From NCBI GenBank assembly GCA_973895155.1, contig OZ316896.1:18526754-18590753 (forward strand): a stretch of DNA of 64,000 nucleotides, written 5' to 3'. Below are positions 21,319 to 64,000 of the stretch, one piece after another. Every line of letters begins with the position of its first letter. Within the stretch, counting starts at the first letter, position 1. The notes beneath the pieces were generated by a model. It was not told the origin of the DNA. It saw nothing but the letters and a program-made list of their open reading frames with translations, and ran no database searches. A program made the translations under genes and the position numbers. The DNA is from Marsupella aquatica (Eukaryota > Plantae > Marchantiophyta).

Positions 21319-24316
21319 ATGGCATCATTATTGGAGAACGGTTGGAAGGTAGGACGACATTCGAAAGCGCTCATCTTACATTCTTCCATGCGTTCATTGA
21401 TTCATTGATTCGTTCTGTTTCTTTTCCATCTTCTCTGCATCTTGACCGACTAGCCAACGCCGTTATGGTACTAGTTTGTTATCCTCCTTCCACACTTCTC
21501 GGCCCCTATCCGCTCGCCTGCCTGCCGTTGTAGACCTCGCATTGTGGGAAATGACGCCTCGCTGATGCACAAGTGGCTGCGTTCGAACGGTCGAACCGCT
21601 ATTATTGGGTCTCATAGGGAGTTTTAGTTCGTGCATGCTCCCCAGCAAGCACAATGGTTAGAGGGAGGAAGGAAGAGGGCATCATTGGGACATCAATGGA
21701 ACCACTTCAGCGTGTCGAAATAATGCGTGCTTCCTGGAGTGGTCTTACTGCTTTTGCATGGTATCTCTACGTCCGAGTCAATCACGGATGCTCATGATGA
21801 CGGAAGCTGGAGGAGCTTTTTAGGAGACGGAGCGGTGGCACGCTATGGAACCCAAATGCAACAATGCTTGGGATTCTGATGGAAGGAGTCGGGTACTTAT
21901 CATTTGTGCTGCCAAGGCGGTCCGGATGTCCTGCCTGAGGGATGTTCTCCGTCTAGTATGGTGCCCTCAAATTCGGCCGTGAAATCCATTTCGGGTGCAG
22001 TGATTGTCAAAAAGGGAGGGGATGGTGAAGGCGAAGATGGCCCTTTGACCTAGGAGTTGCGCTGTTTTACTCATTTTGAATGTCAGAAACGGAGCAATTG
22101 TGATCTGGTCCATGCGAGAGACCTGCAGCGAGGATCGTCCCACTGTGCATTTTGGCGATAAATTGTCGCCCCATGGAGCCGACTTGTTGCCTCAAATCTA
22201 CTTTTCGGCTTACAAGGGATTGGTGATGTAAGGGGAAATCTGACCGATTTTTGTTTCTGTGATTGGTGAATACAGTTCTTGATCGACAACTTCACCGAGT
22301 TTCAACTCGCGTCAGCTGGGACTTTCATCGTTCATGAGAGTGTCTTTTTCCTCTCAGGTTTGCCATATATGCTGATGGAGACCTGGGGATTACGAAAGTA
22401 CAAAATACAGGTAGGCACAGTGCCGGGTGATGCCTTTGTACTCCATGATTAGCTTTAGGTTTGTTCTCTTTTGGTCTCTCTCTCGCCTTATAACCTATCG
22501 TTCCGGATTATTGAAGTTGAGAACATTGGCAGTAAATTTTGCGTAGTATGTGACCCGACCTACTGCTGAACCTGGAATTTTGGTGTCGTTACGTGCAGAG
22601 AAAAGTAAACACCCCCGCCGCCCAGGAGAAATGCTTGGTGCGGCTCGTCCTCTATCACATTTGTGTCAACTTGCCACTCATGATTCTCTCATATCCGGTC
22701 TTCAAGTATATGGGCTTCACGAGTTCATTGCCGTTACCCTCATGGTATGCCGTAACTGTCAGTCATGTATCCCATGAAGCAACTATGGATTAGTGTTTGT
22801 ATGAAGTATCGTGGAAACGATTGAATTTCAGTAGCGACTGGCTTAAAGTAACCGTCTCTTTTGTAAAGTAAAATTTCCTTCATATCCTTTATTTCTGCAT
22901 GATCATGCTCATTTAACTGCGTAGCCTGTTCCAATATGGTGCAGGAAGGTGGTGAGCCTTCAAATCTTTTCGTACTTCATTTTGGAAGATTTCATCTTTT
23001 ACTGGGGCCACAGAGTTCTGCACACCAAATGGCTATATAAACATATTCATAGTGTGCATCACGAGTAAGTCATACGCTTTCTTTCTGAAGTTACTCAGTA
23101 TTGAAGGCAAATATTTATTTTCTCTTGATTGTTGTCAGCTTCGTAGTGCTCGACCTGTGATTGTCTCAATTTTATCACTTCAGAGGTTGCAGACTTGCAG
23201 TTGGAATATACCATTTGACATACGAAGATCATGAGTTCAACTGACCTGCAGATAATTAGGCAGAGCACCCCTACTTGTTGTAATTATTTTCGACGTTATT
23301 TTTAATCCTAGCTTATTCACAGGACCAACTAATGTTTGTTGACAGGTATGCCACACCTTTCGGTTTGACATCAGAGTATGCCCATCCAGCTGAAATCCTC
23401 TTTCTGGGTTTTGCGACCATATTTGGACCCGCCATCACAGGTCCACATCTGCTTACTCTATGGCTGTGGGTCAGTGTGCGCGTGCTGGAGACAGTCGAAG
23501 CTCATTGTGGCTACGACTTTCCCTGGAGTCTCCCAAGGTTTTTCCCTATTTATGGCGGGTAAGTAAGGCTACTGTAGCGAAATCAATTGCTGTTACTACT
23601 TGGTCGGACATTCATATTGACCAGGTACTCGATGTTTTTAACGTATGTCGGCAGGGTATGGGTGGGAGGTCCTGGGTTATGTCATCTCAAATAAGTATTA
23701 TTAGGTTACTCAGTTTCCCACACACGTTACTACCACTCATATGACATTTACTGTCTTGCAGGGCTGATTTCCATGACTATCACCATCGACTCCTGTACAC
23801 CAAGTCAGGAAACTACTCATCCACCTTTACTTATATGGACCGGTGATTATTCCCGCCCCTCTTCTCTAGATGTTGGTCATTGTGATATAACACGGCCTTT
23901 ATTTTTGTTGAGGAGTATTTTTTTGAGATAAGATGTAGCTGGAAATATCGGCCCTCCGAGTTCTGTCAGGAGGGTCGAGGACTCTTAAATGATGAAGGAT
24001 TTCCCGTCCCTACAATTGTTCCTGTTCCTCTATTGTGGAATGTTTCATTCAGGCACCTTCCAACTTGCAGTCGGGGACGCAAACTAGAAGCAGGGTTGCT
24101 AGATACGTGCTATTCCACTCACCAATTTAGAGCCGCGGGACGAACTTGTGGTTTTTCTTGCAGAAAACCTGAAAGTTCTAATACCCACTTGGACTTTGAT
24201 GTGCGATGTTGGTGCGCAGGATTTTTGGCACAGACAAAGGTTACCGAAAGTTGAAAGCGATGAAAGCCCAGGAAACCCAAGTGGAAAGAGCTCAAGCACA
24301 GAAGAAAGTGGAATGA
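21319..24316 (+). CDS. SMO2: Sterol 4-alpha-methyl oxidase, SMO2 type (methylsterol monooxygenase), 7 coding exons
   Basis: Exons 21319-21348, 22276-22410, 22599-22744, 22945-23064, 23346-23558, 23762-23842 and 24220-24316, all GT-AG and in phase. The protein starts MASLLENGWK/FLIDNFTEFQLASAGTFIVHESVFFLSGLP and has the His boxes YWGHRVLH, HSVHHEYATPFGLTSEYAHP and FHDYHH. It ends ...SGNYSSTFTYMDRIFGTDKGYRKLK...KKVE*. Confidence 0.96.
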
Positions 24317-29921: not shown

Positions 29922-32473
29922 TCAATCAACAATGTGCTCATCCTGCTCCTTCATCATCATTCCACGGCGCTTCTTGAGGAGTTGCTCCCGGAGATTGCAA
30001 GCTTGCTTCTCAGCAGCTCTCAATGCTTTCTCCTTAGACCTTCCTGTCAATGGGGTTTTGTGTAGCTCCTGTCTCCTCGACCACTCGTTCTCCTTCCCGA
30101 ACAATGAGAGCCCATTGCCGTTCTCCTTCCCTTCGACTTCACTTAAGATGTCGAGGATCCCCAAAGATTTGGTTGGAGTGGTCGGATTCGGAGAACTGTC
30201 AACCACCTGCTCTGTCGCCAACCGATTACTGTCCAAGGGACTCAAGGGGGTGGGTTTGTCTGCCGTGATCTGCTCCCTAACCTCTGTAAAATCGGTCTCC
30301 AATTCAACTCTGGGTGCTGGTCCTCTCGCTGCGCATTGCACCTTCATCCCTGTAAAATCTATGTCTAGGAAACTCACTGCCACACTGGGTTGCTCTGCAG
30401 CCTTCTCCTCAGATTTCGACAAGTCCTCGATGGCCCTTGGACTCTGCGTGGACACATATTCCGTAGTGTCCGGAGTCCCTACGAGGTCCAATTCCGTGCC
30501 AGTTTCAGCTATCCCAATCTCGATGTCGACGGATTTGATCTGGTCTTTCTGTCCGAGATCCGTCCCCGCTGACTCGGAAGCCTCAAGCTGACAATCAGTG
30601 TGCGCAGCTTCAGTATCCATGAATTCACGGGAGAGCATCCTTCCATCCGTTTCAACATTCGCTGGTTCTGATTCTGCTCTGTTTGATAGGGTATTGTCTG
30701 CAGTTGGCTGGTAACACCACATTTCACGCGATTCCAGAAAATCAGAGAATATTAGAGAAGTGAATTGTAATGCTGAGCACGATTTCCCGAAGCAGCTAAT
30801 GAGAAGCAACCCAAACGATAACGGACTAGGTCACACACTAACAAACCCAAGGACAAATTGGCAGATGAGATAACCACACTGGGCAACCTTTGTACACCAT
30901 TAGTCCCATGGCCCATTTCGAGTGTCCGACTCGGTAAGTTCATTGATACATTCATTGATTTGAACCAACAGCGTGAAACACAAATCAAAGACAAATTGAA
31001 GTGGATTCACAACAATAGATTTCAAGTTCCCATACCGAGTTACAAAGAATAAGCCTCTGATGACCTCTAAGACCGTTGAATCGTTCTGTAATCTCAGTTC
31101 AGCAATCTACAAAAAGAAGTACCGAGGAATGATGCTCTCTGTTCCTCTGTCAACGTCAGAGCTCACCTCTTCGTTATTCTGCGCGAGACCGGTGTCCGCT
31201 GACTTCGAAGCCTCATGCAGGCAGTCATCAGTGTGTGCCGTGTCAGTATCCATAAATTCATGGGAGATCCTCCTCTCTTCCGTTTGAACTTTCGGTGGTT
31301 GTGATTCTGATGGGGTCAATAGGGTATTGTCTGCAGTTGGCTGGTAACACCACATTTCACGTGATTCAGGAAAATCAGACTTTTAGGGAAGCACTCGTAA
31401 TGCTGACCAAAATTTTCCAAACAGCTAACGAACACCGACCCACACAAACAAACCTAAGGAAAAATGAGATATCCTCGCTGGGCACGTTTTCACACCATTT
31501 GGTCCGATGGCCCATTTCGAATCTCCCACTCCATTCAGTGCTTTATTCATTCGAACCAACCGTGAAAGAAAATCCAATAGGAATTGAGGTGGATTAAAAG
31601 AAATAAGTAAAATAGTGAGAGTTACTAGGACTGAGCCTCTGATGAGTTCTCAGACCGTTGAATCAAGTTTAGCTATATACAAAAATAAGTAGGTGCGAGA
31701 AAACTCTGTTAAGCTGTCAGCTGCGAGTTTACCTCTTCAATTGTCCCTCCGAGACCTCCTGTATCTGCTGACTTGGAAGCCTCAAGTGGACAATCACTCT
31801 GCGCAGCGTCAGTATCCATAAATTCATGGGAGAGCCTCCTTCCATCCGTTCCAAAATTCTCTGGTTGTGATTCTGATATGGTCGATAGGATATTGTCTGT
31901 AGTTGGCTGGTAACACCACATTCACGTGATTCAGACTGTTAGGGAAGTGAATCGTAATCCTGACCACATTTTTTCGAAATGCTAACGGACACTATCCTAC
32001 ACGATAACGGACTAGGTCACAAGCAAACACAAGACAACCTCTGTTCAGCTGCAGCGAGCTTACCTCTTCCTCGCGACATTGAAATCTTGTCTTCACAGCT
32101 GGACTTGGCTGAGACATGTCTCTGTAGAGGTATTCATCGGACTGCATTGTCAAATGACGAAGTGTTACTCACGAATCTTGGAAGAACACTGAAATCATAT
32201 TTCAATAGGGTGTATTGCGGACTGATAACAATCCATGACGCTGTAATACTTCCCTGTGAACATTCGCGGAGACTAAACCAGAGATGCTCACGAGCATAGT
32301 GAACAAAGGTTGCCGACTTAGTCACTCACATTGAGGTGAGAGGTGAGAAATTCAGCCATTAATAGATTCGTTCTGTTGGCCGGATAACCGTATTTTTTGC
32401 ACATGGACTGTAGTTGTTTGCGAGGAAGCTCAAAGTAGTTCACAGGACCCTCGCGCTTCTTCCGCCCGGCCAT
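29922..32473 (-). CDS. Uncharacterised protein with N-terminal SAP/HeH-like motif, three tandem-duplicated acidic repeats and two KEN boxes (5 exons, ~451 aa)
   Basis: Minus-strand exons 32473-32330, 32141-32064, 31906-31733, 31340-31167 and 30707-29922, all GT-AG and phase 0. Exon 1 encodes MAGRKKREGPVNYFELPRKQLQSMCKKYGYPANRTNLLMAEFL, resembling the plant 'L.R.ELQ.LCKK..IPAN.TN..MA..L' motif. The C-terminal part has EGKENGN and GKENEW followed by a basic helix. Confidence 0.72.
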
Positions 32474-37278: not shown

Positions 37279-37661
37279 ACAGATGCCTAGGTTTGGTAAT
37301 AGTTTTGCTTGATTGTGCCCCAAGTTTCGTAATGGTTTTGCTTGATTGTGTCTCAAATTCATGTAAAGTACAAGGGGCCCACTAATAGATGACTAGGTTT
37401 GGTAATGGTTTTGCCTGATTGTGTCCCAAGTTCATGTAAAGGTTTGGTAATAGTTTTGCTTGATTGGGTAAAGTGAAGTGTGGCCTAGCTAAGATTGCAT
37501 ATCACACTTTGGAAAAAAAGAATTGAAGTGCTGCCCCCAAGTTCTTGTAAAGCACCAAAATTACGCTCAATTGGGTTGTAGGAGGCACGGGGTGAGGGTT
37601 TTGAAAGATCTCGATCTCCCGAAATCCCGAAAGCAATTGAGGTCAGGAAACAGTGCACACA

Positions 37662-38531
37662 ATGCGGATCCATTGGGATTGCAAGAAATGGCGCGGATGG
37701 ACCATGAAAGGCTTGTGGGTCGTTCTCCATGCACTCTGCGTCGGATTCCTACTTGCGTTGGATTCGGACCTTCGTCGACAAACTCTCCATTTCTCTTGGG
37801 TTGCTGCCTGCTACTACTTGCTGCTGACATTGACCGTAGCCCAGTTTTTTTGGACATCGGGGTCATCCCCAGGCTATGTGATTGAGGCTTTGAAAGATGA
37901 TCCGAGCTTCGAAGCACGTGCCCAATTAGCCTTGCCCAGTACTCTGAGCTCGCGTGCACCGTCAAGTGGTCGTGCTGCTGCAGTGGATGCTAGTAAGTGG
38001 CCGAGTTTACAGGTTCCACTCGCAGCGTCATCATCGGGTAGTCAAGCCCAGGATACATGCAAACACTGTCATTTGATACAGCCATTTCGAACTAAGCACT
38101 GTCGCATCTGTGATAAGTGCGTTTTGCGATTTGATCATCATTGTGGTTTCTTGGGAGCATGTATAGGGCAGAGAAACCACCTCAAATTTTGGTGGTTCCT
38201 AGTCTTTGAGACACTACTCACGTTGTGGACTGCCATCAGATTTTTTTCTGTCATGAATTCAACAGACACGAAGCAAAATTTGATTCTAGTACTAGCTATT
38301 CTTGGACTTCTAGGTTTCCTGGCCTTCTACATTATTGCGCTCCTCATTCACCATACCTACTTAGTAGTGACCAACCAGACCACATATGAGCGCATTAAAC
38401 CTGGAGATATTGCTTATCTCAAGAATTTTTCAAACGGGATGCGCCCGTTCAGCCGAGGCTGTGCAAGCAATGTTCAATCTTTCTGCTGTACTCCAAGTGA
38501 GCCATATCCCATATGTAATCTTCCTGTCTAG
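37662..38531 (+). CDS. PAT10: Intronless DHHC protein S-acyltransferase, PAT10-like
   Basis: One uninterrupted ORF (first ATG at 37662) containing TSGSSPGYV, the Cys-rich domain CKHCHLIQPFRTKHCRICDKCVLRFDHHCGFLGACIGQRNH, four hydrophobic segments, TNQTTYE and the PF..G..SN motif. The PAT10 subfamily call rests on recalled motif similarity. Confidence 0.88.
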   Translation: MRIHWDCKKWRGWTMKGLWVVLHALCVGFLLALDSDLRRQTLHFSWVAACYYLLLTLTVAQFFWTSGSSPGYVIEALKDDPSFEARAQLALPSTLSSRAPSSGRAAAVDASKWPSLQVPLAASSSGSQAQDTCKHCHLIQPFRTKHCRICDKCVLRFDHHCGFLGACIGQRNHLKFWWFLVFETLLTLWTAIRFFSVMNSTDTKQNLILVLAILGLLGFLAFYIIALLIHHTYLVVTNQTTYERIKPGDIAYLKNFSNGMRPFSRGCASNVQSFCCTPSEPYPICNLPV

Positions 38532-47695: not shown

Positions 47696-48181
47696 TCACG
47701 AATATGCCCTTAATTCGCCCAAATGATTGTCATCTACAATCCGCTCCATCTCTTCCCAGTCCTCATCAACACTCGTACGTTCCACTCGAGCGTACATCAA
47801 CGTGCAGCTATTGAGGTAAACAGATCCCCGCAAATTTTTCGGACACCGTTCCCCGAGCTGCACTCGGGCTGAGACAATGCAGGCATAACATTCCTCTATG
47901 TTCTTCATGTCTTTGGAAGGAATACACCCAGCAGATCCAACTACATCTTGGCCCCCGTCTCCCGTCGTTTGACACATCAGGTCCCAGCTCGCGTGCGTCA
48001 TAATGTCAACCTCCATACCATTCAGCACCTCCTGCACCTTCTCTTGATACAGCACCGAGACCTCCGTCGTGTCCGCGCTGCAAGACCAAGCCTCGAGAGA
48101 CTCATCGCCTCTCACTGGCAACAAAGCACGAATGTAGCACAGGGTGCCAAGCAAGACCGCGATCCGTTGCACCATCCTCAT
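47696..48181 (-). CDS. Secreted single-domain DUF26/Gnk2-like (ginkbilobin-2-like) cysteine-rich protein
   Basis: Intronless ORF with a signal-peptide-like start MRMVQRIAVLLGTLCYIRALLPVRG, then WSCS, YQEKVQEVLNGM and VGSAGCIPSKDMKNIEECYACIVSARVQLGERCPKNLRGSVYLNSCTLMY. This matches the Gnk2 Cys pattern (C-Xn-C-X2-C...C...C..Y). An acidic tail follows. Confidence 0.78.
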   Translation of the reverse strand: MRMVQRIAVLLGTLCYIRALLPVRGDESLEAWSCSADTTEVSVLYQEKVQEVLNGMEVDIMTHASWDLMCQTTGDGGQDVVGSAGCIPSKDMKNIEECYACIVSARVQLGERCPKNLRGSVYLNSCTLMYARVERTSVDEDWEEMERIVDDNHLGELRAYS

Positions 48182-50454: not shown

Positions 50455-51731
50455 ATGGAAATAACAAGGCAATCAACAATGATTGCACCTGTCATATTAG
50501 ATGACAATTCATGCCTTCGTGTCTTGCATCCTGAACAATATGCAAAGTCAAAATTTGTCGAAACAACTTGCAACGAGTTTCGAACCAAACTCTTTCATTT
50601 CAACAATGTAATTATCATGTGTTCAATCCCTTTTCAATACAAGGCTCTCCACTTGTCTGGCTAGCATGTTGCATACACAACACCCTATACTTCACATGAC
50701 TTCCACTAGATGTGCATTTGAGTACAATGAAATTTGCTTAGTGTTGCATTTGTTTTAGAAACATTGAGGAGAATTGTTGATATGAATTACTATATTCACT
50801 ATGGAGACTATTCTTTGTGTAGTAAATGTTGTTGATGAATTCCGATGAAAGCCATAGAAAGTCAACAAAGTAGCTTATTGTCAATAAAGAATAAATGATG
50901 TTTTCAGTTATTTTTGCACTCCACTCGTATCTAGTTTCTTATGTTTAAAAACAAGTGTAGAAGTCGTCCATCATTGGAACACTGAGGACAGTTATGAAGT
51001 GTGGAAGATAACAATAATTCTGGAGAATTCATATTAAATTGATTGCTTTTTTACTATAATTGAGTGCACTGTCTGCACATGCACAGTTAGTGAAGCAGCT
51101 GTTGGGTCAAGTGAAAGAACAAGCAGAAAAAATAGATATGGTGAAGGTTCAAGCAATCGGTACACGTAATATGGTCTCTATTGAAGTGGAAACTAGGACG
51201 AAAAAGTTGCACGACCAAAATGATATGATTGTTGATAAACAAGAGCAACTTGAGGTACATCATTTATCTTCATGAAAATCTCTGAGATGTTCAATTGCTT
51301 TGTACCCTTGCAGATTTTCATTTTATTTTGTGGTTATAATTCAAACAAACAGAAAAGTGAAGAAAAATGGTAGGCGGTCTGATGCCAAGCATGATTTTTA
51401 GTATGGAACAGAAGCTTATACATATAATTGATTATAACTAGATGGCATCACCGTTTATGAAAATCAATAATTTGGATCCATTGATGAGTTCCTTTTGAAT
51501 ACACAGATAGTTTATGAGAGATCAATTAAATAAAGTATTTGTTTAGTTTTGGTCAATAATCGTCACTACTAGTCATTGCCAAGGATATTTGTGTACAATT
51601 CTCACTTCAACAAGTGGTGTTTCATTTTTGAGTGACAGAGGCTAAAGATTGAATTGAAGTCATTGGCCATGGTTAAGCAAGAACAAGAAGTTCTGATTGC
51701 CCGATTGTCAGAGTCAAGTGTCCCAGCATAG
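50455..51731 (+). CDS. IFT20: Intraflagellar transport protein 20 (3 exons, 137 aa)
   Basis: Phase-0 GT-AG exons 50455-50607, 51087-51254 and 51639-51731. The spliced protein has ILDDNSCLRVLHPE...CNEF, QAEKIDMVKVQAIGTRN and KQEQLE/RLKIELKSLAMVKQEQEVLIARL, matching the IFT20 coiled-coil signature. Confidence 0.9.
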
Positions 51732-54700
51732 AATCCTACTCAATTGTTGAATCCGCTGTGAGCTGTTCAGCTTTCCAATGCCCACATATAGAGAACCATT
51801 ATGGTAGTAGCATCAAAAAAGGGTTTGAGCCTCAAGCAGGTCTTGCAAATTAAAGCAATTCATGTGGCTAGCTAAACATAGTTTCTAAATATTAAATGCT
51901 CCTCACTGGTATTCCAATAATTCCTCCTTTTGCGTTGTGTTAGTAATGCTGCTTTTGGTGAACATTACATCTAAAATTTGAGACTTGTTTTTATGAATTT
52001 TTGTGGATTGCAAGTGTGCTCTCTATTGTAGACAATAGTGTAGGTTTCCTGCACAACATGGGGTCTAATTTGGTTGCCTAGTCTTAAGCCTCATCCCTGA
52101 AAAGCTCACATGGAAAAGGATTGGAATATAGAGTCAAGTTTGTACAAAGAACATTTGGTGCCTTTGAGCCCATTCAACGTACATTGTGTCTTCCATCAAA
52201 TGTAAAAGATAAAGTTTAGAATATTTTTTCATTTATATCTGGGGATGAGGGGTAACTTTGATGAGTTCCAGAAGTTTCGGGGGGTATCACTGGAATATGT
52301 TATTGAAATAAAGAAGCTTATGATTGCACAATGCTTTGGTACATGTTGACAGGATCTGTGTAAAGAAACATCCACATGAGAAACACAGTTATGTTTCCTT
52401 TTCATTTAGAAATGTTACCACACCGTATAGTCCTTGAGTTTTGTATTTCTTTGAAAAATTGGATTTGAGTGCATACAAATACGTCGTCGAGGAGCCCAGG
52501 TTGGAGACCATGAAGTAATATTCTAGCTCGATTGCATCATGTCTTGTAATTTTTGCATATCAATCATTTGACCCCGATGATTGTTTGGTATTTGGCTCAC
52601 CACTCTGCACAAAAGTATACTTGTTTGTATGCAGTACAAGAGGAAAAGCTGTACATATGGAACGTTCTGTGAGGGCTCATTACAAAGTTCTATTTTAATG
52701 ATTCAGTTGGCTAAAAGTTTTGCTCATATTTTCGGAGAAATATTGTGGTTTGGTATTCATCCATCTTAGTCAGATGTCTGACCAGCTGATGAACTTGTCA
52801 CATCAAATGATTATCATGTGTACTGACACGTGAGTTAATATCTTAGAATGTGGGAATGTCAGAATGTGTGTATGGGAAAGAATCTATTTCTCCTTTTATG
52901 AAGCTGTGTTAACTGCTTAAATGTCATTTCATTGTACTGTTTTTGAGACAATTTCCAGCTTGCACAGTTGATTTTCTAGCATGGGAACATGACCAGGAGA
53001 TAAAAAAAATTAGGGTAAGAAAACTTTATGTTTGGATGGGTTCCATGACATGAGATTTTAATTTGCAAACGAAGTTAACTCAATCTATAGGACTCCATTA
53101 GCTCATAGTTGATATCCTATAAAACTATGTAGAATTCTTTCTGTCTTCTTGTGACCAAAGAGCTATATGGTCACGGACCTGGTTTGGTTATATTGAAGTC
53201 CACAGGCATTGAGGTGGGTTGGGATGACCCTTACTAATCACTCACTGAGGATCTCAGCATACCCAAAGGACCTAGGTTTTGTACTACTGTATGATAGTCA
53301 CCGTCCCAAAGGGATTTCTAGCGTATGACAACACTACTGTAGCCGCAAGTTCTCATCCCCAGGCCCCAAGGTTTCTCTCATCCATGATACCCAAATAGTA
53401 TATCAGGTCCATGACCAAAAAGCTATTTGGTCGCAAGAAGACTGAGTGGATGTCTCCTCTGTATTTTCGAATGCTTGGCTATGTCTTTTCCTGCACCAGT
53501 AAGGGCTCTAAGTTCCTAATTTTTTATTTTTTTTATTTTTTTTTCAAGGCTAATTAATATAACATGTCATATGATAAGGCATAATGTTTGGATTTGAGGT
53601 TCACAAATATGTGATAGGCTTAATGTTTGGATGTCAAGGTTATCCATAGGATTTGTGACAAATAGTAACATCAATATTATTAGAAGTGGGTCCCATTTCA
53701 CCCAGTCTTGCTGGGTCAATATCTGATTATGTGCACGATATTTGCTACCAATTGTTTCCTTACTAGTCGACTAACCTTGGGATAGAGAAGTGAGTTTTCA
53801 GGTCTATAAACCCTCCTTGTGAATCTTCTTTTGATTCTCATTGAAGGTCATGAGCCATAACCCCTAGTTTGCCAGCAATGGAATTCCCTGAGCGATTGAA
53901 TCTGTGTTATTGACACTGATCAGGGCTACAACTCCTTCCCCGGACTGAACTAGGTGAACCCAGTGTTACTGAGATCTCAAACTGGAACCTATAGTCCAGG
54001 GTAGGGTAATCCAGAATACTAGGACCAGATTCTTGAGAATGTACTGCAAAAATACCATAGGGCAATATGATATCACTTAATACATTAAAAAAGACTTGGC
54101 ATTGAGTGAAAGGCAAGAAAATTGAAATTATGGTTTTTTCCTTGGAAGAAATTATGGTTTTTTAATCTCCACTCATGGGTATAAGCTAACAAACCAATCC
54201 TCTTATTGGGGCCAATGGCTTCTAGCCGTGAGGGGGGATAAGCTACCCTACAGACCAGTAAAGTACACTAATTTTTGTAGGAAACAAAGGTTACTGGTGG
54301 GTGAACATTTTTAATCCATGCTTTTATTTTCATAATCTTGTGTTAAATTCACAGCTGGATAATTTTTTCCGTACAATTGAACCCTTAGACTACTAAGTCA
54401 GCTCGCTATTGTACGAGATGAGAACCACCGTAAAGAGGAAGGCCAGAAGATGAGCGAGGCATCCTTTTTTTTATCATTGCCCCCAGATTCAGCAGTAGTA
54501 CTGCTGTCACCAATACTGATGTCATTAGTACTACGTTTACCAGTGCTGTCATCATCAGGTTTTTCATGGGGATCTCATCGTCTCCCTCGGTAGCTCCCAT
54601 TGAAGTGCGATATACTTGGTGCAACTAATAACCTTTGGGAAAGGTATATTAATTATTATTGGTCCAAAAAAGGGAGAATTGCGTAAGGCCCGGAGGGCTG

Positions 54701-55074
54701 GTGGTAGCTTTGGATTTCACCACTGAAGCAAGCCAATAGAAGTGAGAAAGCTTGCTAGGACGCTACGCGCCTCACAAGCATTAAAATTTTGATTGATCTG
54801 GATTCACATTTGCCAAGAATGGGCGTTATAGCAAAATAGAAGAAAAAACCCACTGAAGCAAAAAACTTATGCACAAAAACTGATGTTTGGCAGGGTTCTA
54901 CCCTGCAAATGAAGTGTTTGAAAAATCTTTCCGACTTCCACTGGTCATCTTGTTCTCACATCTCAGAGCCAGGGCTGTAGCGGAGTAAACCCCCACCCAC
55001 ACCTCAGTTACCCTATACATATAGAGGGAATGGGTTACCCAACAAAACACTAACACACTGTAGTCAACTAGGGT

Positions 55075-55425
55075 GTCTCAAACCTGCTGTTCCCCTTTTA
55101 GGTTAATTGCTACAACACCTTTGGGGCAAGCTTCACCCAAGGGGGTTTTGGTTTGAGACAAATCACAATACTTGCCCGCAAGTCAACTCAACATCATCAA
55201 ATTTGATTATTTGATCATTTTCTGAAGGACGCCAACACATTTCAGGATGTCTCAAACCTGTGGTTCCCTTTTTCGGTTAATTGGTACGAGAAATTTTCTG
55301 TCCGCATTCCAACTCTAATTGAAACACAATTTTGGGGCAACCTTCACCCGGGGGGTTTTGGTTGGAGACAAATCACAACATGCACTTGCCCGCAAGTTAA
55401 CTCAACATCATCAAATTTGATTATT
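55075..55425. repeat. ~140-175-bp tandem duplication hosting a MITE in its second copy
   Basis: GTCTCAAACCTG...CTTGCCCGCAAGT.AACTCAACATCATCAAATTTGATTATTT occurs at ~55075-55212 and ~55249-55425. Further TTCTGAAGGA.GCCAACACATT copies lie at ~55760 and ~55848. Confidence 0.75.
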
Positions 55426-55428
55426 TTT

Positions 55429-55753
55429 CTCGGGGGGGTCACTTCCACGGAAGTGACACATCACGTGCGACGAAGTATAGGCCCATTTAAATGGGTGTGA
55501 CGGAATACTTCCAAAGTTTGGTGGAAGAACACATAGAACATGTTTTATTGACTGGTTGACTTTAAAGAACACATAGGCCTATTTAATTGTAAATATACTT
55601 TCTTTAAAGTTTATAGGGGTTTTTTAATAAAAATGACAAAATTTAAAGAAAGAAAGGGTTTTGCAAAAAAATAATTTTCACTTATAAGTTAGGGGGTTCA
55701 AATCCTAAAACGTCGCACGCGATGTATGGCTCTCCATATAGTGACCCCCCGAG
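55429..55753. mobile_element. MITE, 325 bp, with imperfect ~45-bp TIRs and an 8-bp TSD
   Basis: The termini are CTCGGGGGGGTCACT...ACATCACGTGCGACG and CGTCGCACGCGATGT...AGTGACCCCCCGAG. TTATTTTT flanks both sides (55421-55428 and 55754-55761), and the interior is AT-rich. Confidence 0.85.
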
Positions 55754-56163
55754 TTATTTTTCTGAAGGATGCCAACACATTACAGAGGTATAATTATGCT
55801 TCTTAGACGCCAAAATAAAACTGTTACTTAATGGGATTTAATTATATTTCTGAAGGACGCCAACACATTCCAGAGGTATAATTATGCTTATTGGACCCCA
55901 AAATAAATAAATTTGTGACTTAACGGGACTTATGAGTGATCCAGCCAGTTGATAGACCTTAAATCAATGCAACCTCATTGTGCTGATTGGGGAGAAAGTT
56001 GGGTTTGGGGGTCCATCAAGCAAATAGCTTCACATTTTGCGCCCAGTTTTAGGTGGTGCAGACTCCTCTCCACTCACGGCCTAAGTTTTAGTGGCGGCAT
56101 CAGTTTTTGCAAAGCACATATTTTCAACCCTAGAGCATTCAGGTGACCTAAAATCTCAACAAG

Positions 56164-57880
56164 ACATGTAGTTTGGGAAGGCCTACTTTGACTTTAATTA
56201 TCAGCTATTACACTAAACTATGCATCTCGGTTAATTATAAAATCACATGTACAATAGTTTGTGAAGGCCTACTATTACTTTACTTATATGCGATTTACAC
56301 TAAACCATGCATCACCGGTTAATTATAAAACCTTCACAGAACATGTAGTTTGTGAAGGCCTACAATTACTTTAATTATCAGTGATTACACTAAACCATGC
56401 ATCATCGGTTGATTATAAAATCTTCACAGAACATGTAGTTTGTGAAGGCCTACTACTACTTTAATTATCAGTGATTACACTAAACCATGCATCATCGGTT
56501 AATTATAAAATCACATGTAGTTTGTGAAGGCCTACTATTACTTTAATTATCAGCGATTACACTAAACCATGCATCATCGGTTAATTATAAAATCTTCACA
56601 GAACATGTAGTTTGTGAAGGCCTACTACTACTTTAATTATCAGCGATTACACTAAACCATGCATCATCGGTTAATTATAAAATCTTCACAGAGCATGTAG
56701 TTTGTGTAGGCCTACTACTACTTAATTATCAGGGATTACACTAAACCATGCATCATTGGTTAATTGTGAAATCACATGTACTTTGTGAAGGCCTACTATT
56801 ACTTTAATTATAAGTAATTACACTAAGCCTTGCATCATTGGTTAATTATAGAATCTTCATAGAACATGTAGTTTGTGAAGGCCTACTATTACTTTAATTA
56901 TCAGCGATTACACTAAACCATGCATCATCGGTTAATTATAAAATCACATGTACTTTGTGAAGGCCTACTATTACTTTAATTATAAGTAATTACACTAAAC
57001 CTTGCATCATGGGTTAATTATAGAATCTTCAAACATGTAGTTTGTGAAGGCCTATTGCTACTTTAATTATCAGGGATACACTAAACCATGCATCATCGGT
57101 TAATTGTGAAATCACATGTACTTTGTGAAGACCTACTATTACTTTAATTATAAGTAATTACACTAAGCCTTGCATCATTGGTTAATTACAGAATCTTCAT
57201 AGAACATGTAGTTTGTGAAGGCCTACTACTACTTTAATTATTAGCGATTACACTAAACCATGCATCATCGGTTAATTGTGAAATCGTATGTACTTTGTGA
57301 AGGCCTACTATTACTTTAATTATCAGCAATTACACTAAACCATGCATCATCGGTTAATTATAAAATCACATGTAGTTTGTGAAGGCCTACTATTACTTTA
57401 ATTATCAACAATTACACTAAACCATGTATCATCGGTTAATTATAAAATCACATGTAGTTTGTGAAGGCCTACTATTACTTTAATTATCAATGATTACACT
57501 AAACCATGTATCATCGGTTAATTATAAAATTTTCACAAAACATGTAGTTTGTGAAAGCCTACTACTACTTTAATTATCAGGGATTACACTAAACCATGCA
57601 TCATCGGTTAATTGTGAAATCACATGTACTTTGTGAAGGCCTACTATTACTTTAATTATAAGTAATTACACTAAACCATGTTATAGAATCTTCACAGAAC
57701 ATGTAATTTGTGAATGCCTACTACTACTTTGATTATCAGGGATTACACTAAACCATGCATCATCAGTTAATTATAAAATATTCACAGAACATGTACTAGA
57801 ACATGTACTTTGTGAAGGACTACTACTGTTACTTTAATTATCAGCAATTACACTAAAGCATGCCTTTCATCGGTTAATTA
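56164..57880. repeat. Tandem satellite array of about 20 units of 82 or 90 bp, with partial ~172-bp higher-order structure
   Basis: The unit is ACATGTAGTTTGTGAAGGCCTACTATTACTTTAATTATCAGCGATTACACTAAACCATGCATCATCGGTTAATTATAAAATC, with or without TTCACAGA. Unit starts include 56341, 56431, 56513, 56603, 56693, 56774, 56864, 56946, 57033, 57114, 57204, 57286, 57368, 57450, 57540 and 57622. Confidence 0.96.
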
Positions 57881-57937
57881 GGCCTCTCTCTCATAGAAAT
57901 CAGATTGTCAAGAAAGTGGAGCACAATTGAGGTCGCC

Positions 57938-58477
57938 ATGTTCAAACGAACTCAGTTCTCGAGGATAACTCCGCTCCACTCCGCCATCACTCGCGAATCT
58001 GTCATGGCAATTCTCCACAATCATGAGCAAATGATCGACCTCAACCCTATCGTCGTTGAACGCCACCCCATCGCACCACCCCACAACGCCAGCGCCGACG
58101 AATTGCGCTTTCAATGGTACCGAATTCAGGATGGAATGCAGGCAGGATATGCGAAATACGACGCCGGTTTCCTGAATCGCGACGATGGACTCCAGACGCG
58201 GGTTTATGCTCCATTAGGGTTGAAAATCGACGGCAAATGGACGCTGTGTGCGGGATTGCCCGGCGACTTGGAAGGCGAGGCGGTGGAGAAAATGGTCGAT
58301 GGTGAAACAAAGCCGGAGAAAGGGTTGTGGCTGCGCGAGGATGTGGATATGGAGTGCAATTTATTCCTGACGTGGTTTGCGAAAAGAGCGATGAAGAAAT
58401 CTCATGCTGAGTTGGTGCAGAGACTGACCGCAAGAGCGGAGAAGTTATCTGAGGCAAAGCAAAACTTAGGCGTCTAG
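57938..58477 (+). CDS. Intronless protein resembling a filamentous-fungal uncharacterised family (DUF7053-like); candidate horizontal transfer
   Basis: Clean 179-codon ORF from ATG 57938 (context GCCATG), GC-richer than its flanks. The motifs KRT.F..ITPL...ITRE.V...LHNH..MIDLNP.V.ERHPI.PP, GLQT..YAP.GL.I.GKWT, GLWLREDVDM.CN and K..MKK.H..LV.RL are colinear with a family I recall from ascomycete proteomes. Confidence 0.8.
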   Translation: MFKRTQFSRITPLHSAITRESVMAILHNHEQMIDLNPIVVERHPIAPPHNASADELRFQWYRIQDGMQAGYAKYDAGFLNRDDGLQTRVYAPLGLKIDGKWTLCAGLPGDLEGEAVEKMVDGETKPEKGLWLREDVDMECNLFLTWFAKRAMKKSHAELVQRLTARAEKLSEAKQNLGV

Positions 58478-58903
58478 CTCTGGGGCAGATTCTGGACCGA
58501 TCCAGGTTTAGGGGGTCTTCTTGCGACTCAATTCCGGACGGACTAGTTGAGCAGTACGAGCTTGCCTGGCCTGGCCTGTCTAGGGCAACGAAGATGTCTT
58601 GAACGTCTCAACTTCGCATTCTTGCGCAAGGTTCTTGAACTGTTCGAGTGAAATATATGCATTTGCAAAAAGTAAGAATCCGCAACGTCCAGTCTGGATT
58701 CGTCGTTTCTGCAAATGTATAGTGTTTCACTGAAGCACATGGACTGGAAGATGAGATAGGTCACGGGATCAAGGTTTGATGGACACTCGGCTGGACGATG
58801 AATTCATGCGCTTCTTATTGCTTGGTGCTGAATGTTTTCAGTGATGCGCACATGTGCTACCTCCCCAACTGTCAGACAGTAGCGGAATTAAAGTTGGAAC
58901 CTG

Positions 58904-59294
58904 CAGATCGACCTTCATTTGTTAGCAGGGAAACGAGTTCTCCAAGACGTCGCACATTATCCCTTCTCTTTCGCGGGGAAGTTTCAAGCCGCAAATTGAG
59001 TAAATACGGCAAAGGCCTTGCGTGACAATCACGAAGGATGCCAATACAGATCACGATCTAGTTATCAACTTCCAATCCCGCAGGGGAACCAGTCTTCCTA
59101 GACCTCGCAGATTATCCCTTCCCCTTACCCGGGGATTTTCAAGATGTAAATTGAGTAACAATGGCAAAGACCCTTGCCTGGCAATCATGGAGGATGTTAT
59201 GTACAGATCATGACGTACTCTACCAGCTCCCATTCGGCCATTCTCCACTCTCGTTACTGCTCCCATTCGGCCATTCTCCACTCTCGTTACTGCT
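58904..59294. repeat. Diverged ~145-bp tandem duplication followed by a 33-bp perfect duplication
   Basis: GCAGGG.AAC.AGT...TCGCA.ATTATCCCTTC...TTTCAAG...AAATTGAGTAA...GGCAAAG occurs at ~58904-59042 and ~59048-59198. GCTCCCATTCGGCCATTCTCCACTCTCGTTACT appears twice at ~59226-59291. Confidence 0.7.
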
Positions 59295-61847
59295 CGTTGT
59301 TTAGGTAGCCTTGTCTATATTGAACAATGCAAAGAAATGTTCTTACGAATTCCGTACTAAGGGATCCAAGCCTGAAATCCCAGTTGACGTCACATCCGTG
59401 TGTTGAAGTTCCTTAATTTGTTACATGAATGTCCTAATTGAAAAGAATGATCAACTTTCAAATCCAGATTAAACATCAGAGCCCTGCATGGAGCCGTGTG
59501 CGAATTAAGGAGATCCCAGTACTAAATCCACGCTGACGAAGTGCAGCAAAGTATTATCAAGATATTTCCAAGCGATCTCAATTTCACATCCACATTGCTA
59601 TCAGCCTGCACATTGACCCGTGGAGCAAAACAATTTCTATGAAACTTCTGAGGGAATCTCTGTTTCAATTTATCCCCAAAATCCTCAACAGCAATCGAAT
59701 GTGTTACCTTCCTTGATAAACTCCGTGGTACTCTCTGTTAGCTTACTGCGAAATTTGTAGTGTAAGCACTTGATTTTCATTTCATCGGGAATTTCAGTGG
59801 ATCAGCAATCCGTGTGAACAGTACATACAGCTTCCATTACCGCCTGTGCGCGCTAGGGTTCTCAAAAACAGAGGAGCTGCAGATGATCTTTAAGGAGCCA
59901 TGAAAGACCTCCATGCCACGTCGGGGGATTTCCTGAGACAGATGATGGCACCTCTGAACGTATCATCGCTGGAAAGCACCGACGACCTGTGAACTTTTTG
60001 TTTGGGGATCGTACGAAAAGTTGGCACAACGGGGTACGGTGCCACGTTTTGGAAGAAGTCCTCGGCATTTCTAGAAATCATTTTCCTTCTGATTTTTGGA
60101 AAATGATCCTCAGCTTTGGTAGCAAAGGAATGGCCACGTTCCGCTTGAATGATTATGAATGACCCCAAATTAGACACTGGAGTAGTTTAGCAGCTTCCCG
60201 TTCCACTCTAACGACCATTCGAGTGAAAGCTCGTCAAGCAAGGATGCACTGCTGCAGTGACAGGAAACAATACCTGATTCGTGTGCTCAATTGTCCGGAA
60301 TTGAACTGACAGATGATGCTGTTTCTTTTGGTGTACTGACGTACAGAAGGGGCTTCAAATTGGCCTTTCCCGAACGCAAAATAACCGTCTGGGATCAAAG
60401 TTGTGTACATTAATAAACATGTACGTGATGTTCTCAGTGACGTGTTCTAGTTTGAATGTGCATTGCTCCTGCAACTTTGCCTCGCCTCAAATAGCTTGGA
60501 TCGTGCTCCCAATTCATGCATGTGCTCGCCAGACATTTAGCAGCATTTCGCAACTGTTCTAGATTTGAATTACCTTCGATTCACAGGATGTCCTTCGGTG
60601 GTTTGGTTTAGTAACGAGCTTGAAATTATCTCTTCCTGAACGCAAATGAACTTAGCGGCCAGAAGAGAAAACCATGTGACAAAGGTTTGCACATTTAGTG
60701 GCCTGTTTGCAAGATCCTGTTCTGATTTGAATTTGTACTGAATTTCTGCAACGTTTGGAATTGTACCAGCTTTGACTGAAAAAGCTTCCATGTTCCGTAG
60801 AACGGGGGACAGCAGGCCAATCCGGAGCTCCGTCTGGCGACTTAGCGCCAGTTCCAATCTTTCATCCGAACCAGTGCGCCAAATCTCCTCTCATCTCTTC
60901 GCTCAGTAGACCTTCGACTGCTCTGTTCGTTCAATTGGATCCATGTTTCGCATGAATATGTCGAATTCTGTCCAGCGCTGGCATTCCGATCGTATTCGCT
61001 CCATCGGGCTATTTATCTCGCTACTCTTGCAGCGACTATTTGTCGATGAACCACTCCATCTTCCTAGTAGTTTCGGAGACTCTCTGTGTCTTTCGCAGAG
61101 GGAATTTTGCAGACTGGTCGTCTGAAGAGCGTCTGGGAGCCCGAAAATCGTCCTCGAGGTACTTTGCATCTCAGCGGCTGCTCTCTCGCTGCATTCAGAC
61201 ATAATATTTGTGGTGAAGGATCTCGAAGCATGGATTAGTCAGCCAGGTGCCTTTAGAGGAGGTCATCTTGAAAATTGAGCCAATTAGCTTGAAACTAGAT
61301 CATCTCTTCGCGTCTGGACATAGCTGTTTATAAAAACCTTGCCGAGGAAAAGGAAGTCTGCGTGATTGTTCTTGGATCAAGGGAGGCACGTGACGAAGAC
61401 AATTCCTTCTGCACTCGAATGGGGGAACAGGATCTTACTTGGTGGTTTGCAGCTGATTATGAGGTGAATAATATCTCGTAGCCCTTCTATCTTGCTCTCC
61501 ATCCTTTCTTCCAAATTCTGCATTTGTTTAAAAACGAGCTCATCCTTTTGCCCTAATTCAAAATAGATCATGACTTCCATTCACTTGCACTCAACTTAGA
61601 TGAGAACGGTGTGATTCTCATCGGTACACGAAATTCACTTAGTGACTTTCAGATGTTTTGCCAATTAAAGGTATAAGCACAAGGACTCTGCTCGAAATGA
61701 GCAGAATACAGGAGACAGAACATAAGAAGCATGCAAGACAGTTCTAAGAAACGAGAGCATTGATTGACGAACACATTCTGGCAAATCATGAACTGGAAAG
61801 CAAACGCATGAATATAGGAATTCATCTGAGAGCAGATAAATTTCGAA

Positions 61848-64000
61848 ATGGACCTCCTCACAATGTTCTTCATGGCGGCTTTGCCTGTCCTGAAAATCTT
61901 CATTACATGCGGGTTTGGCGCGTACCTTGGTCACCCAAGTGTAAATATTTTGACAGAAGATGGCCGAAAATTGATGAACAAGGTATATATCTTCATTTTG
62001 CCGATCCCTGAAGAGTTATGCCTCTGTGTACCTGAATTTAGGAAAGAGTGATTTTAGCATCTTCTCCAGGGGCATGCATTTCTCTGCTGGTGGTTTGTGT
62101 AGCAAACGAACTCTGTCACGGTACACCTACATGTCCAAGCGTTGTTTAAAGTGCCTGCCTGGGAAACATTTCTACAACAGGAGCTTTGAAAAATAAATGA
62201 ATAGGCATTCTTCAATGTACAATGGTGGCGTAAAAACGCAGTATGAAATTGTAACGATATATTCATAACATTGCAGGCTAAGTAAATGTGTGGTCGATAC
62301 TGCCATCACAGCTATTGACATTTACGTTGAATTGTGAGACTCCGTAGAGGATTTCAATTTCAAATTTCACATGATTCCTGTCAAAATCACATTGATTGTG
62401 ATTATCCTAAGTTCTTGCAGCTCGTAGTAGTTGCATTCACACCAGCATTTGTCTTCACCAAGTTGGCAAGGGCCGTGTCCTATGAGAATATCTTGGCGTG
62501 GTAAGCATCTCATCTCTCTAAAGCCTGATTATCCATCAAGGTTTATCTACCGTTGAAACTAAAACTGATGTCCGCGAAAGGATTCACGAGAATAAGCCCA
62601 GGATGATGAACACCCTTGCTTCCCTTCCTCAATACCAAGTTATAAGATGAACTGTAATCATGATGGCCATTGCAAGACAGAATGCTTAAGTACCTTGAGC
62701 GTTGATGTGCAGGTGGTACATGCCTATCAACGTTTGTCTTTGCTTTTTTTGCGGGCTTGCCTTGGGCTTTGTGGTCCTGAAGAACACTACTGTTCCACCA
62801 CACCTGAGGAATCTTGTCTTGGCGTGTTGTGCTGCAGGTGCGTAGTCCACTTTACGTTCCTCGTTTCGCATTTGTCTTGACTAAATCAGCAATTTCACTG
62901 ATTGTATGTTTGGTAGTCATTGAGGAAGAAAATGTCAGCGATGCATTTGTAAGAGCACAGAGCTGATATTAGGAGAGGGCCTTTCGTCAAATGTACCTTG
63001 GTCTTCCTCAGGGATTTAGGAACCACAAAACTGGTCATGCTTCTCCACATCATTGGATTGAACATTCTCCATGATTCTGTAATTTTTCTCACTGCACGAT
63101 TTTATGGCTTGGATTTCAAGAGTATTTTTCTTGCAACCAGTGTCAAGTTATTGTTGCTGGCCATCAATTGCAAACATGTTTGTGCCATAGACTTACACCG
63201 TGTTTTGTCTGAGCCTGACTAAAGAATGTCCGATCTATTTCATAGTCTTGGTTGTATAACGCTGTCCAGTCCCCTACGGTCTTCCTGACTCCATTTTCCT
63301 CCCCAAAAGTGACTGCTATTGTCGCTTATAATACAGAGAATTCTCGTGTTCTTCCAGGCAATACCGGTAACGTGCCATTAGTTCTGATTCCGGCAATTTG
63401 TGAGGAGGACGGGAATCCATTTGGGAGGTCAGAAGCCTGCATTCGAGATTCGACGGCATATGTGTCTTATGGGATGTGGGTAAGCTTGTCCATTAATTCC
63501 TAATCATCAATATGCTCGGGAAGCTGTTGAGGAAAGATCTCGTCCCTCCTTTGAAACGCGCAAGTTGGATAGTCCTTGGAATGCTTGTAAGATCACCGTA
63601 TTCAGTGTGATTTATTTAACAGAAACTATTTAGCCAGAAGCCCTGGGAAGGCATAATCTTTAGACAAACCCACTCTGATTTTGATTGCGTACGTCAACAA
63701 AACATCATAAGCTGCCTCTGCCCAACTCTTTGTCTCCAGTACTGTTCGATGGCAAATCTGAGTCCGTAACTTGCTCATGGGTCTCATGGGTCAGGTGGGA
63801 ATCGCCCTTACATGGACAGTCGTCTACAGGCTCCTCCAGCCTCCGGACTTTCAGAAGGAAGGACCAGCACCTCCAGTAGGAAGTAATGGTGGGTCTCCGC
63901 GACCTCCAATAGGAAGTTATGGTGGGTCTCCACGTTTCAGTGACTTCGGAGACTTTCAAGCAGGGAAATATGAAATAGAAGAGTTTAATCCCCGCATGGA
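61848..64000 (+). CDS. PILS: PIN-LIKES (PILS) auxin carrier family protein, 5' part, truncated by the window end
   Basis: Exons 61848-61982, 62421-62500, 62713-62837, 63358-63479 and 63795->64000, all GT-AG and in phase. The protein reads AALPVLKIFITCGFGAYL...NILTEDGRKLMNK/LVVVAFTPAFVFTKLA...W/WYMPINV...ACCAA/GNTGNVPLVLIPAICEEDGNPFG...YVSYGMW/VGIALTWTVVYRLL. Confidence 0.93.

What the first reader, a model, noticed from the sequence alone, without database searches (positions are those of the whole stretch)
57938..58477. Intact fungal-type gene embedded in a plant chromosome: candidate fungus-to-bryophyte horizontal transfer
Seen: an intronless, stop-free 179-aa ORF, GC-richer than its flanks, lying between clearly plant genes (IFT20 and PILS). 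Knowledge from recall: its motif order (KRT.F..ITPL, LHNH..MIDLNP, GLQT..YAP.GL.I.GKWTL, GLWLREDV.M.CN) follows a family of uncharacterised ascomycete proteins (DUF7053-like, possibly a START/SRPBCC-type ligand-binding fold) that I do not know from seed plants. Inference: an acquired and retained gene of unknown function, perhaps binding lipids or small molecules in plant-microbe interaction.
Basis: partly seen in the sequence, partly recalled or inferred. Interest (0 to 1): 0.85.

Follow-up and report, generated by a model that had tools for sequence, protein, structure and literature searches.

The report
Fungal pocket-protein gene in leafy liverworts
A liverwort chromosome carries an intact gene whose only other named relatives are in ascomycete fungi and one more leafy liverwort, so it was most likely taken from a fungus long ago, and its protein is predicted to be a small-molecule-binding pocket whose cargo is untested.

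Summary
The ORF at 57938-58477 (+) is real: 179 aa, DUF7053 (PF23155, E 5e-52). The host looks like a leafy liverwort (the neighbouring IFT20 exon is 75% identical to Calypogeia fissa). Contamination is very unlikely. The gene's contigs have the depth of the flanking plant genes in two studies, a 3.7%-diverged version occurs in two further studies, and C. fissa has two copies on multi-megabase contigs. The window protein, the C. fissa copies and two unnamed proteins form one clade (100/99) and share a 7-residue hairpin deletion that none of 283 other relatives has. All other named relatives are Pezizomycotina fungi, apart from one probable contaminant labelled Quercus suber. This points to one old fungus-to-liverwort transfer. 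The donor class is unresolved, and nesting inside the fungal subfamily is not significant (AU p 0.245). The predicted fold is helix-grip (START/SRPBCC/Bet v 1; Z 14.5), most likely a carrier of a small hydrophobic molecule. Constraint is modest (dN/dS about 0.4, p 0.05), and truncated copies exist. Expression is untested. Fungal transfers into bryophytes are well known, so this is a new member of a known kind.

The parts
57938..58477 (+). DUF7053 gene, single coding exon, 179 aa (P0001); predicted helix-grip fold: strands 2-12, 39-45, 59-65, 72-81, 84-91, 95-106, 129-141, helices 19-26, 29-34, long C-terminal helix 145-178
58115..58159 (+). Codons W60-Y74: beta-hairpin shortened by 7 residues; the fungal [YF]xP turn is missing
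   Evidence: 15 residues in the 5 liverwort-type rows only, 22 in 214 of 288 rows; motif in 265 of the 283 other rows; models
57874..57937 (+). Short unique leader: branch-point-like TTAAT, pyrimidine tract and TAG (possible acceptor of a leader intron), then a GCCATG start context
   Evidence: sequence as read; splicing is inferred and untested
56164..57883 (.). AT-rich tandem array of 82-90 bp units directly upstream of the gene; the same repeat abuts the diverged gene version in three other runs
   Evidence: 17 copies of period 82, 56340-57779; loose ends at 57884 in X3, X4, X5
51087..51731 (+). Last two exons of host IFT20 (upstream plant neighbour)
61848..64000 (+). Start of a multi-exon host Mem_trans (PILS-type) gene (downstream plant neighbour)

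Best explanation
The window holds an intact DUF7053 gene between plant genes, which an ancestor of leafy liverworts likely took once from a Pezizomycotina fungus, and whose protein is predicted to fold as a helix-grip pocket that likely binds and carries a small hydrophobic molecule. Shown: ORF, family, host-level depth, copies in other samples and in Calypogeia fissa, one liverwort-type clade with a shared deletion. Predicted: a seven-stranded sheet gripping a long C-terminal helix, the START/SRPBCC/Bet v 1 cavity fold. Inferred: after transfer the protein lost the tip of one beta-hairpin, kept only the domain without the long tail of most fungal members, and replaced a conserved His (fungal 95%) by Arg or Gln. 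It would therefore act as a stand-alone soluble binder whose pocket access and ligand may differ from the fungal ones. No signal peptide or membrane segment is evident by eye; this was not tested with a predictor. My odds: resident in the plant genome 0.97; fungal origin by transfer 0.9; still functional here 0.75; binder or carrier rather than enzyme 0.65.
For: Residence: run X1 contig 57735-59255 is identical to the window at depth 15.8, against 15, 13.5, 15.1 and 14 for its neighbours, which include the 8.9-kb contig holding the PILS exons (X1 may be the source sample). In X3 (another study), window-identical gene pieces have depth 27.9 and 24.1 against 27.5-29.1 for identical pieces near IFT20, and the diverged version has 44.7-53.5 against 38-59 for diverged flanks. 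X5 (third study) holds the diverged version. C. fissa has CAM6100009.1 (174 aa, 70% identical, 15.3-Mb contig) and CAM6115015.1 (86 aa, 8.8-Mb contig). Origin: all 38 rows with an organism name among the 120 listed of 547 hits are Pezizomycotina (class placement recalled). Atlas DUF7053 clusters are 100% eukaryote, commonest Ascomycota. The liverwort-type clade has 100/99 support and is separated from fungal subfamily B by a 100/99 branch. Its identity to Leotiomycetes-like and Lecanoromycetes-like groups (0.51) equals that between the two fungal subfamilies (0.51). Fold: pLDDT 79, pTM 0.75; Z 14.5, rmsd 2.7, 134 aligned to 2pcs, with aromatase/cyclases and PYL9 within 1 Z; a fungal member gives the same fold at pLDDT 91. 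Function kept: 8 synonymous and 12 non-synonymous differences to the diverged version, dN/dS about 0.40, no indel or stop.
Against: The AU test does not reject a tree in which subfamily-A fungi exclude the liverwort clade (p 0.245), and no outgroup beyond the family was available, so direction rests on distribution. Of 10 subfamily-diagnostic columns the window protein has the A state at 4, the B state at 3 and neither at 3, and profile scores do not separate the subfamilies. dN/dS differs from neutral only at p 0.05 on 20 changes, one of which hits a 97%-conserved Pro. One of two C. fissa copies is annotated at 86 aa, and X3 and X4 hold a version cut at codon 155. The one C. fissa IFT20 retrieved lies on a 4.1-Mb contig, not on either DUF7053 contig, so synteny was not found. 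No listed contig spans the satellite or the 33-bp duplication at 59226-59295. The sources of P0002 and P0019 are unnamed. A shared fold shows no function.
Confidence: 0.62

Rival explanations
1. The gene came from a fungus, but its product is a small cofactor-free enzyme (a cyclase, lyase or synthase acting in the pocket) and not a carrier.
For: Aromatase/cyclases (3tfz, 3tl1, 4xrt, 4xrw) tie with the top match, and norcoclaurine synthase, hydroxynitrile lyase and lachrymatory factor synthase follow at Z 12-13. Polar residues are nearly invariant across the family: H29, E55, D65, Q86, E134, H156.
Against: Identity to these enzymes is 7-12%. Carriers and receptors (CoxG, PYL9, PR-10) score as well. 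No biosynthetic gene family was found in the 18 frames scanned between the gene and PILS. Which residues face the cavity was not determined.
Confidence: 0.2
2. The gene came from a fungus but is now dispensable and decaying under relaxed selection.
For: Long branches in the clade (0.96 stem). Truncated copies in C. fissa and in runs X3 and X4. The X4-specific changes are 5 non-synonymous to 1 synonymous and include E55K at an invariant site. dN/dS is only about 0.4.
Against: Four full-length proteins at 50-81% identity keep the frame and most conserved columns. The window-versus-diverged comparison has no indel or stop. The ORF has no CpG depletion (observed/expected 1.2).
Confidence: 0.12
3. 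An ancient eukaryotic family inherited vertically and lost everywhere except ascomycetes and leafy liverworts ('last one out', PMC13047068).
For: The tree cannot be rooted outside the family, and the AU test is not significant. Only 150 of 560 and 120 of 547 hits were listed, so rare members elsewhere could be unseen.
Against: Plant-fungus identity (0.51) is as high as between fungal subfamilies. No named hit from another plant, alga or protist appeared, except a Quercus suber entry that sits in fungal subfamily B without the deletion and is probably contamination (contamination of that assembly is recalled).
Confidence: 0.04
4. Fungal contaminant DNA joined into the plant assembly.
For: The gene is bounded by repeats at which short-read contigs break, and no listed record spans the whole stretch.
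Against: Depth equals host single-copy depth in X1 and tracks both host haplotypes in X3. The contig ends fall exactly on the two ends of a local tandem duplication. C. fissa has the gene on multi-megabase contigs. The best fungal identity is only 56%.
Confidence: 0.02

Closest known systems
Pezizomycotina DUF7053 proteins (PF23155), e.g. Hyaloscypha hepaticicola, Botrytis, Toensbergia, Circinaria members
   Same: Same domain at 45-56% identity, same motifs, same predicted fold.
   Different: Sits in a liverwort genome. Lacks the 7-residue hairpin tip with the [YF]xP turn. Has no long C-terminal tail (265 of 283 other rows exceed 250 aa). H88 is replaced by R.
Helix-grip (START/SRPBCC/Bet v 1) proteins: CoxG-like 2pcs and 8uds, aromatase/cyclases 3tfz and 3tl1, PYR/PYL receptors, PR-10
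   Same: Predicted fold, Z 12-14.5, rmsd about 3 over 130-147 residues; 212 Foldseek matches at E <= 0.001.
   Different: 6-17% identity and no sequence-level match in the PDB. It is not a member of the plant PYL or PR-10 families; ligand and activity are unknown.
Reported fungus-to-bryophyte transfers: RDS1, YANB, EUPF, FB lectin (PMC12513842), NAS (PMC12454661)
   Same: Short, intron-poor, fungal-type gene among plant genes, restricted to part of the bryophytes.
   Different: A different, uncharacterised family. DUF7053 was not found in the text searches made. Whether it is among the 1,809 families in the supplementary tables of PMC12513842 could not be checked.

Membership tests
DUF7053 (PF23155) | Score above the Pfam gathering cut-off over the whole profile | tested here: met
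   176.5 bits against 27; profile 2-170 of 171
Helix-grip START/SRPBCC/Bet v 1 superfamily | Seven-stranded antiparallel sheet around a long C-terminal helix with two short helices | tested here: met
   On predicted models only:
Helix-grip START/SRPBCC/Bet v 1 superfamily | Binds a hydrophobic ligand in the cavity | not testable with these tools
   Needs binding assays or a ligand-bound structure
PYR/PYL/RCAR ABA receptors | Gate (SGLPA) and latch (HRL) motifs and sequence kinship (motifs recalled) | tested here: not met
   Neither motif is in P0001; 6-10% identity in structure matches; no sequence match in the PDB
Polyketide aromatase/cyclases | Conserved catalytic pocket residues and a polyketide pathway context | not tested
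   No residue-level structural alignment was available; fold match only
Fungus-to-bryophyte horizontal transfers | Best hits outside the recipient group are fungal | tested here: met
   38 of 38 organism-named rows among 120 listed of 547; named clusters
Fungus-to-bryophyte horizontal transfers | Flanking genes are plant genes and the gene is not contamination | tested here: met
   by depth and independent genomes, not by a spanning read
Fungus-to-bryophyte horizontal transfers | Recipient clade nested with support inside the donor group | tested here: inconclusive
   Best tree nests it in subfamily A; AU p 0.245; donor class unresolved
Fungus-to-bryophyte horizontal transfers | Expressed and under purifying selection | tested here: inconclusive
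   dN/dS about 0.40, p 0.05; expression not tested

The most novel reading that the evidence does not exclude
Leafy liverworts took a fungal helix-grip protein and remodelled its pocket entrance into a plant sensor or carrier, for a signal of their ascomycete rhizoid partners or for their own oil-body terpenoids or bibenzyls. It would be a second, independently acquired PYL/PR-10-like ligand-binding system in land plants, and the first handle on what DUF7053 does.
Probability: 0.12. Interest if true: 0.8.

Novelty: new member of a known kind. Interest (0 to 1): 0.42.

Why it matters
It adds an uncharacterised ligand-pocket family to the fungal genes that liverworts have kept, and it ties the transfer to leafy liverworts, some of which host ascomycetes in their rhizoids (Cephaloziella; PMC6976342). 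The small, tail-less plant protein is an easy target for finding the ligand of DUF7053, a family widespread in Pezizomycotina with no hit in the paper library searched. Intact and truncated versions in related plants offer a natural comparison. It does not change the general picture, since such transfers are known in the hundreds.

Tried and rejected
No whole genome is held for this window, so copy number and distant paralogues could not be searched. Sequencing runs: no RNA holder listed; this says nothing about expression. No sequence match in the PDB. A viral carrier: no relative in viral contigs, and only distant START/PITP folds in the viral structure library. Metagenome contigs gave 2 short loci at 40-47% identity, not examined further. 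Other fungal remnants beside the gene: 18 frames between 58546 and 61580 gave no credible Pfam hit (one at E 0.049). GC content as transfer evidence: rejected (the IFT20 and third PILS rows of that call were out of frame and were not used). Donor class: profile scores did not discriminate and tree support was low (43/38 for the Leotiomycetes grouping); the bootstrap had not settled. Synteny with C. fissa through IFT20: not found for the one copy retrieved; a second copy could have been missed. The sequence that replaces the 3' end in the truncated version is not in the window. Depths of X2 and X4 were not used for copy number: their pieces break at GATC and GANTC sites, which suggests proximity-ligation libraries (inferred). 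Literature: 'DUF7053' 0 papers; searches listed none on this gene; no hit in 1 readable supplement of PMC12513842 or 10 of PMC13069868. Earlier findings by sequence and near place: none.

Full report
Observation. The window has a stop-free 179-codon ORF at 57938-58477 on the + strand. It matches Pfam DUF7053 at E 5e-52 over nearly the whole profile. Upstream lies an AT-rich tandem array (56164-57779 by Tandem Repeats Finder) and, 6.2 kb before the gene, the last IFT20 exons. A multi-exon Mem_trans (PILS-type) gene starts 3.4 kb after it. The ORF's GC (0.52; GC3 0.62) matches a host DUF26 exon (0.53; 0.61), so the GC contrast is not evidence of foreign origin.

Host. The IFT20 exon found 2 proteins among 21 candidates: Calypogeia fissa at 75% and Riccia fluitans at 64%. 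C. fissa is a leafy liverwort of the Jungermanniales. The host is therefore probably a leafy liverwort; with two comparators this is an inference.

Is it in the plant genome? Five runs from three studies hold the stretch. In X1, which may be the source sample, an identical contig covers 57735-59255 at depth 15.8; neighbouring identical contigs have 15, 13.5, 15.1 and 14, the last holding the PILS exons. The gap between gene contig and PILS contig is a 33-bp tandem duplication. The two contigs end exactly on its first and last 30 bases, each of which occurs twice in the window. This is adjacency in an assembly graph, not a spanning read. X3, from another study, holds three versions: window-identical pieces (depth 24-28, like identical pieces near IFT20 at 27.5-29), a full-length version with 20 coding differences (depth 45-54, diverged flanks 38-59), and one that leaves the gene at codon 155. 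X5, a third study at low depth, holds the diverged version past that point. In X3, X4 and X5 the same satellite abuts the gene. Whether X3 is a mixed sample or a polyploid cannot be told. C. fissa carries two annotated copies on contigs of 15.3 and 8.8 Mb. Genome duplication is reported in the genus (PMC7257191, passages seen), which could explain the pair. Contamination is thus very unlikely.

Relatives and origin. The single-protein search gave 17 hits of 62 candidates, the representative search 560 hits with 150 listed, and the profile search 547 with 120 listed. All 38 organism-named rows are Pezizomycotina. Cluster look-ups of 30 proteins added more Pezizomycotina, the C. fissa pair, the two IFT20 entries and one entry labelled Quercus suber that falls among fungi. 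Five rows (window, P0002 at 81%, two C. fissa, P0019 at 51-53%) have 15 residues between W60 and Y74, where 214 of 288 rows have 22 and no other row has 15. They form one clade in a FastTree of all 288 rows and in an IQ-TREE mixture-model tree of 57 rows that I chose for named taxa and spread, leaving out the 86-aa fragment (100/99). The fungal rows split into two groups, A and B (100/99). B holds Eurotiomycetes and Dothideomycetes members and A also holds Dothideomycetes, so they are probably paralogous subfamilies (class placement recalled). The liverwort clade lies on the A side. Holding all A fungi together without it costs 15.7 log-likelihood units, which is not significant (p 0.245). Diagnostic columns are split (4 A, 3 B, 3 neither for the window protein) and profile scores do not separate A from B. 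The tree is therefore compatible with transfer but does not prove nesting or name a donor. The direction rests on distribution: a diverse family in Pezizomycotina against one small clade in leafy liverworts, at identities (0.51) no lower than between A and B. Differential loss is the standard alternative (PMC13047068, passages seen) but would need loss in all other sampled eukaryotes. P0002 and P0019 have no named source. P0019 has a low-complexity tail and could be a distant liverwort or an unsampled fungus close to the donor; in the second case the deletion predates the transfer. The single C. fissa IFT20 retrieved is on a different contig from both DUF7053 copies, so conserved position was not found.

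Selection. Window against the full-length diverged version: 8 synonymous and 12 non-synonymous changes, dN/dS about 0.40, one-sided p 0.05, no indels. Six changes seen only in X4, which I assign by inference to the truncated version, are 5 non-synonymous to 1 synonymous and include E55K at an invariant site. Four of the 6 are CpG transitions against 3 of 20 (Fisher p 0.03). The difference in synonymous share is not significant (p 0.38). This fits a working gene under moderate constraint with a silenced, decaying side copy, on small numbers.

How it likely works. The model (pLDDT 79; residues 108-120 unsure) matches helix-grip proteins: CoxG-like 2pcs (Z 14.5, rmsd 2.7, 134 aligned), aromatase/cyclases, PYL9 and norcoclaurine synthase, with 212 Foldseek matches at E <= 0.001 led by PYL receptors. 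The Hyaloscypha hepaticicola member folds alike at pLDDT 91 and shows a longer hairpin (strands 59-68 and 76-88), so the liverwort deletion trims that hairpin's tip. In this superfamily the cavity binds hydrophobic ligands, loops and the last helix gate entry, and some members are cyclases (PMC13525633, passages seen). I commit to a soluble binder or carrier of a small hydrophobic metabolite, with a remodelled entrance; an enzyme is the main rival. It lacks the PYL gate and latch motifs (recalled) and is no ABA receptor by family. [quoted passage not shown]

Known background and novelty. PMC12513842 (passages seen) reports 1,809 transferred families in 49 streptophytes and about 229 such genes per bryophyte, with fungal RDS1, YANB, EUPF and FB lectin among them. 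PMC12454661 (abstract and outline seen) reports repeated NAS transfers. 'DUF7053' occurs in 0 papers of the library. It is absent from the one readable supplement of PMC12513842 and from 10 supplements of PMC13069868 (main text not read). The main supplementary PDF and workbook of PMC12513842 were too large to read, so the family may already be listed there without a name. Verdict: a real, probably old fungus-to-leafy-liverwort transfer of an uncharacterised pocket protein; new member of a known kind; interest 0.42.

Noticed in passing
window 55433-55750: 318-bp element with 40-nt terminal inverted repeats (73% complementary) and very high summed depth in all four runs laid; MITE-like, name inferred.
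   Followed up: partly
window 54377-54861: Second repeated element (depth about 550 against 15 in X1) with many loose ends.
   Followed up: no
window 47699-48178 (-): Single-exon protein with a hydrophobic N-terminus and a DUF26/Stress-antifungal domain (PF01657, E 3e-7).
   Followed up: partly
window 37641-38531 (+): DHHC palmitoyltransferase (PF01529, E 6.5e-32) in one long open frame, apparently without introns.
   Followed up: partly
window 23284-23562 (+): Exon of a fatty-acid/sterol hydroxylase family gene (PF04116, E 3.6e-6).
   Followed up: no
window 29922-31382 (-): Acidic low-complexity frames with a duplicated segment (ESREMWCYQPTADNTL occurs twice); no Pfam hit for 29925-30830.
   Followed up: no
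window 58400, runs X3 and X4: A version of the gene leaves the window sequence at codon 155 and would lose most of the last helix; its new 3' sequence is not in the window.
   Followed up: partly
window 58925-59213: A 134-bp direct duplication (77% identical) in the 3' flank, followed by a perfect 33-bp tandem duplication at 59226-59295.
   Followed up: no
protein P0113 (POF01271.1): A DUF7053 protein labelled Quercus suber sits inside fungal subfamily B and lacks the liverwort deletion; probably fungal contamination of that assembly.
   Followed up: partly
window 52000-64000, run X3: The run holds both window-identical and 2-7% diverged sequence along the region: a mixed sample, hybrid or polyploid.
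   Followed up: no
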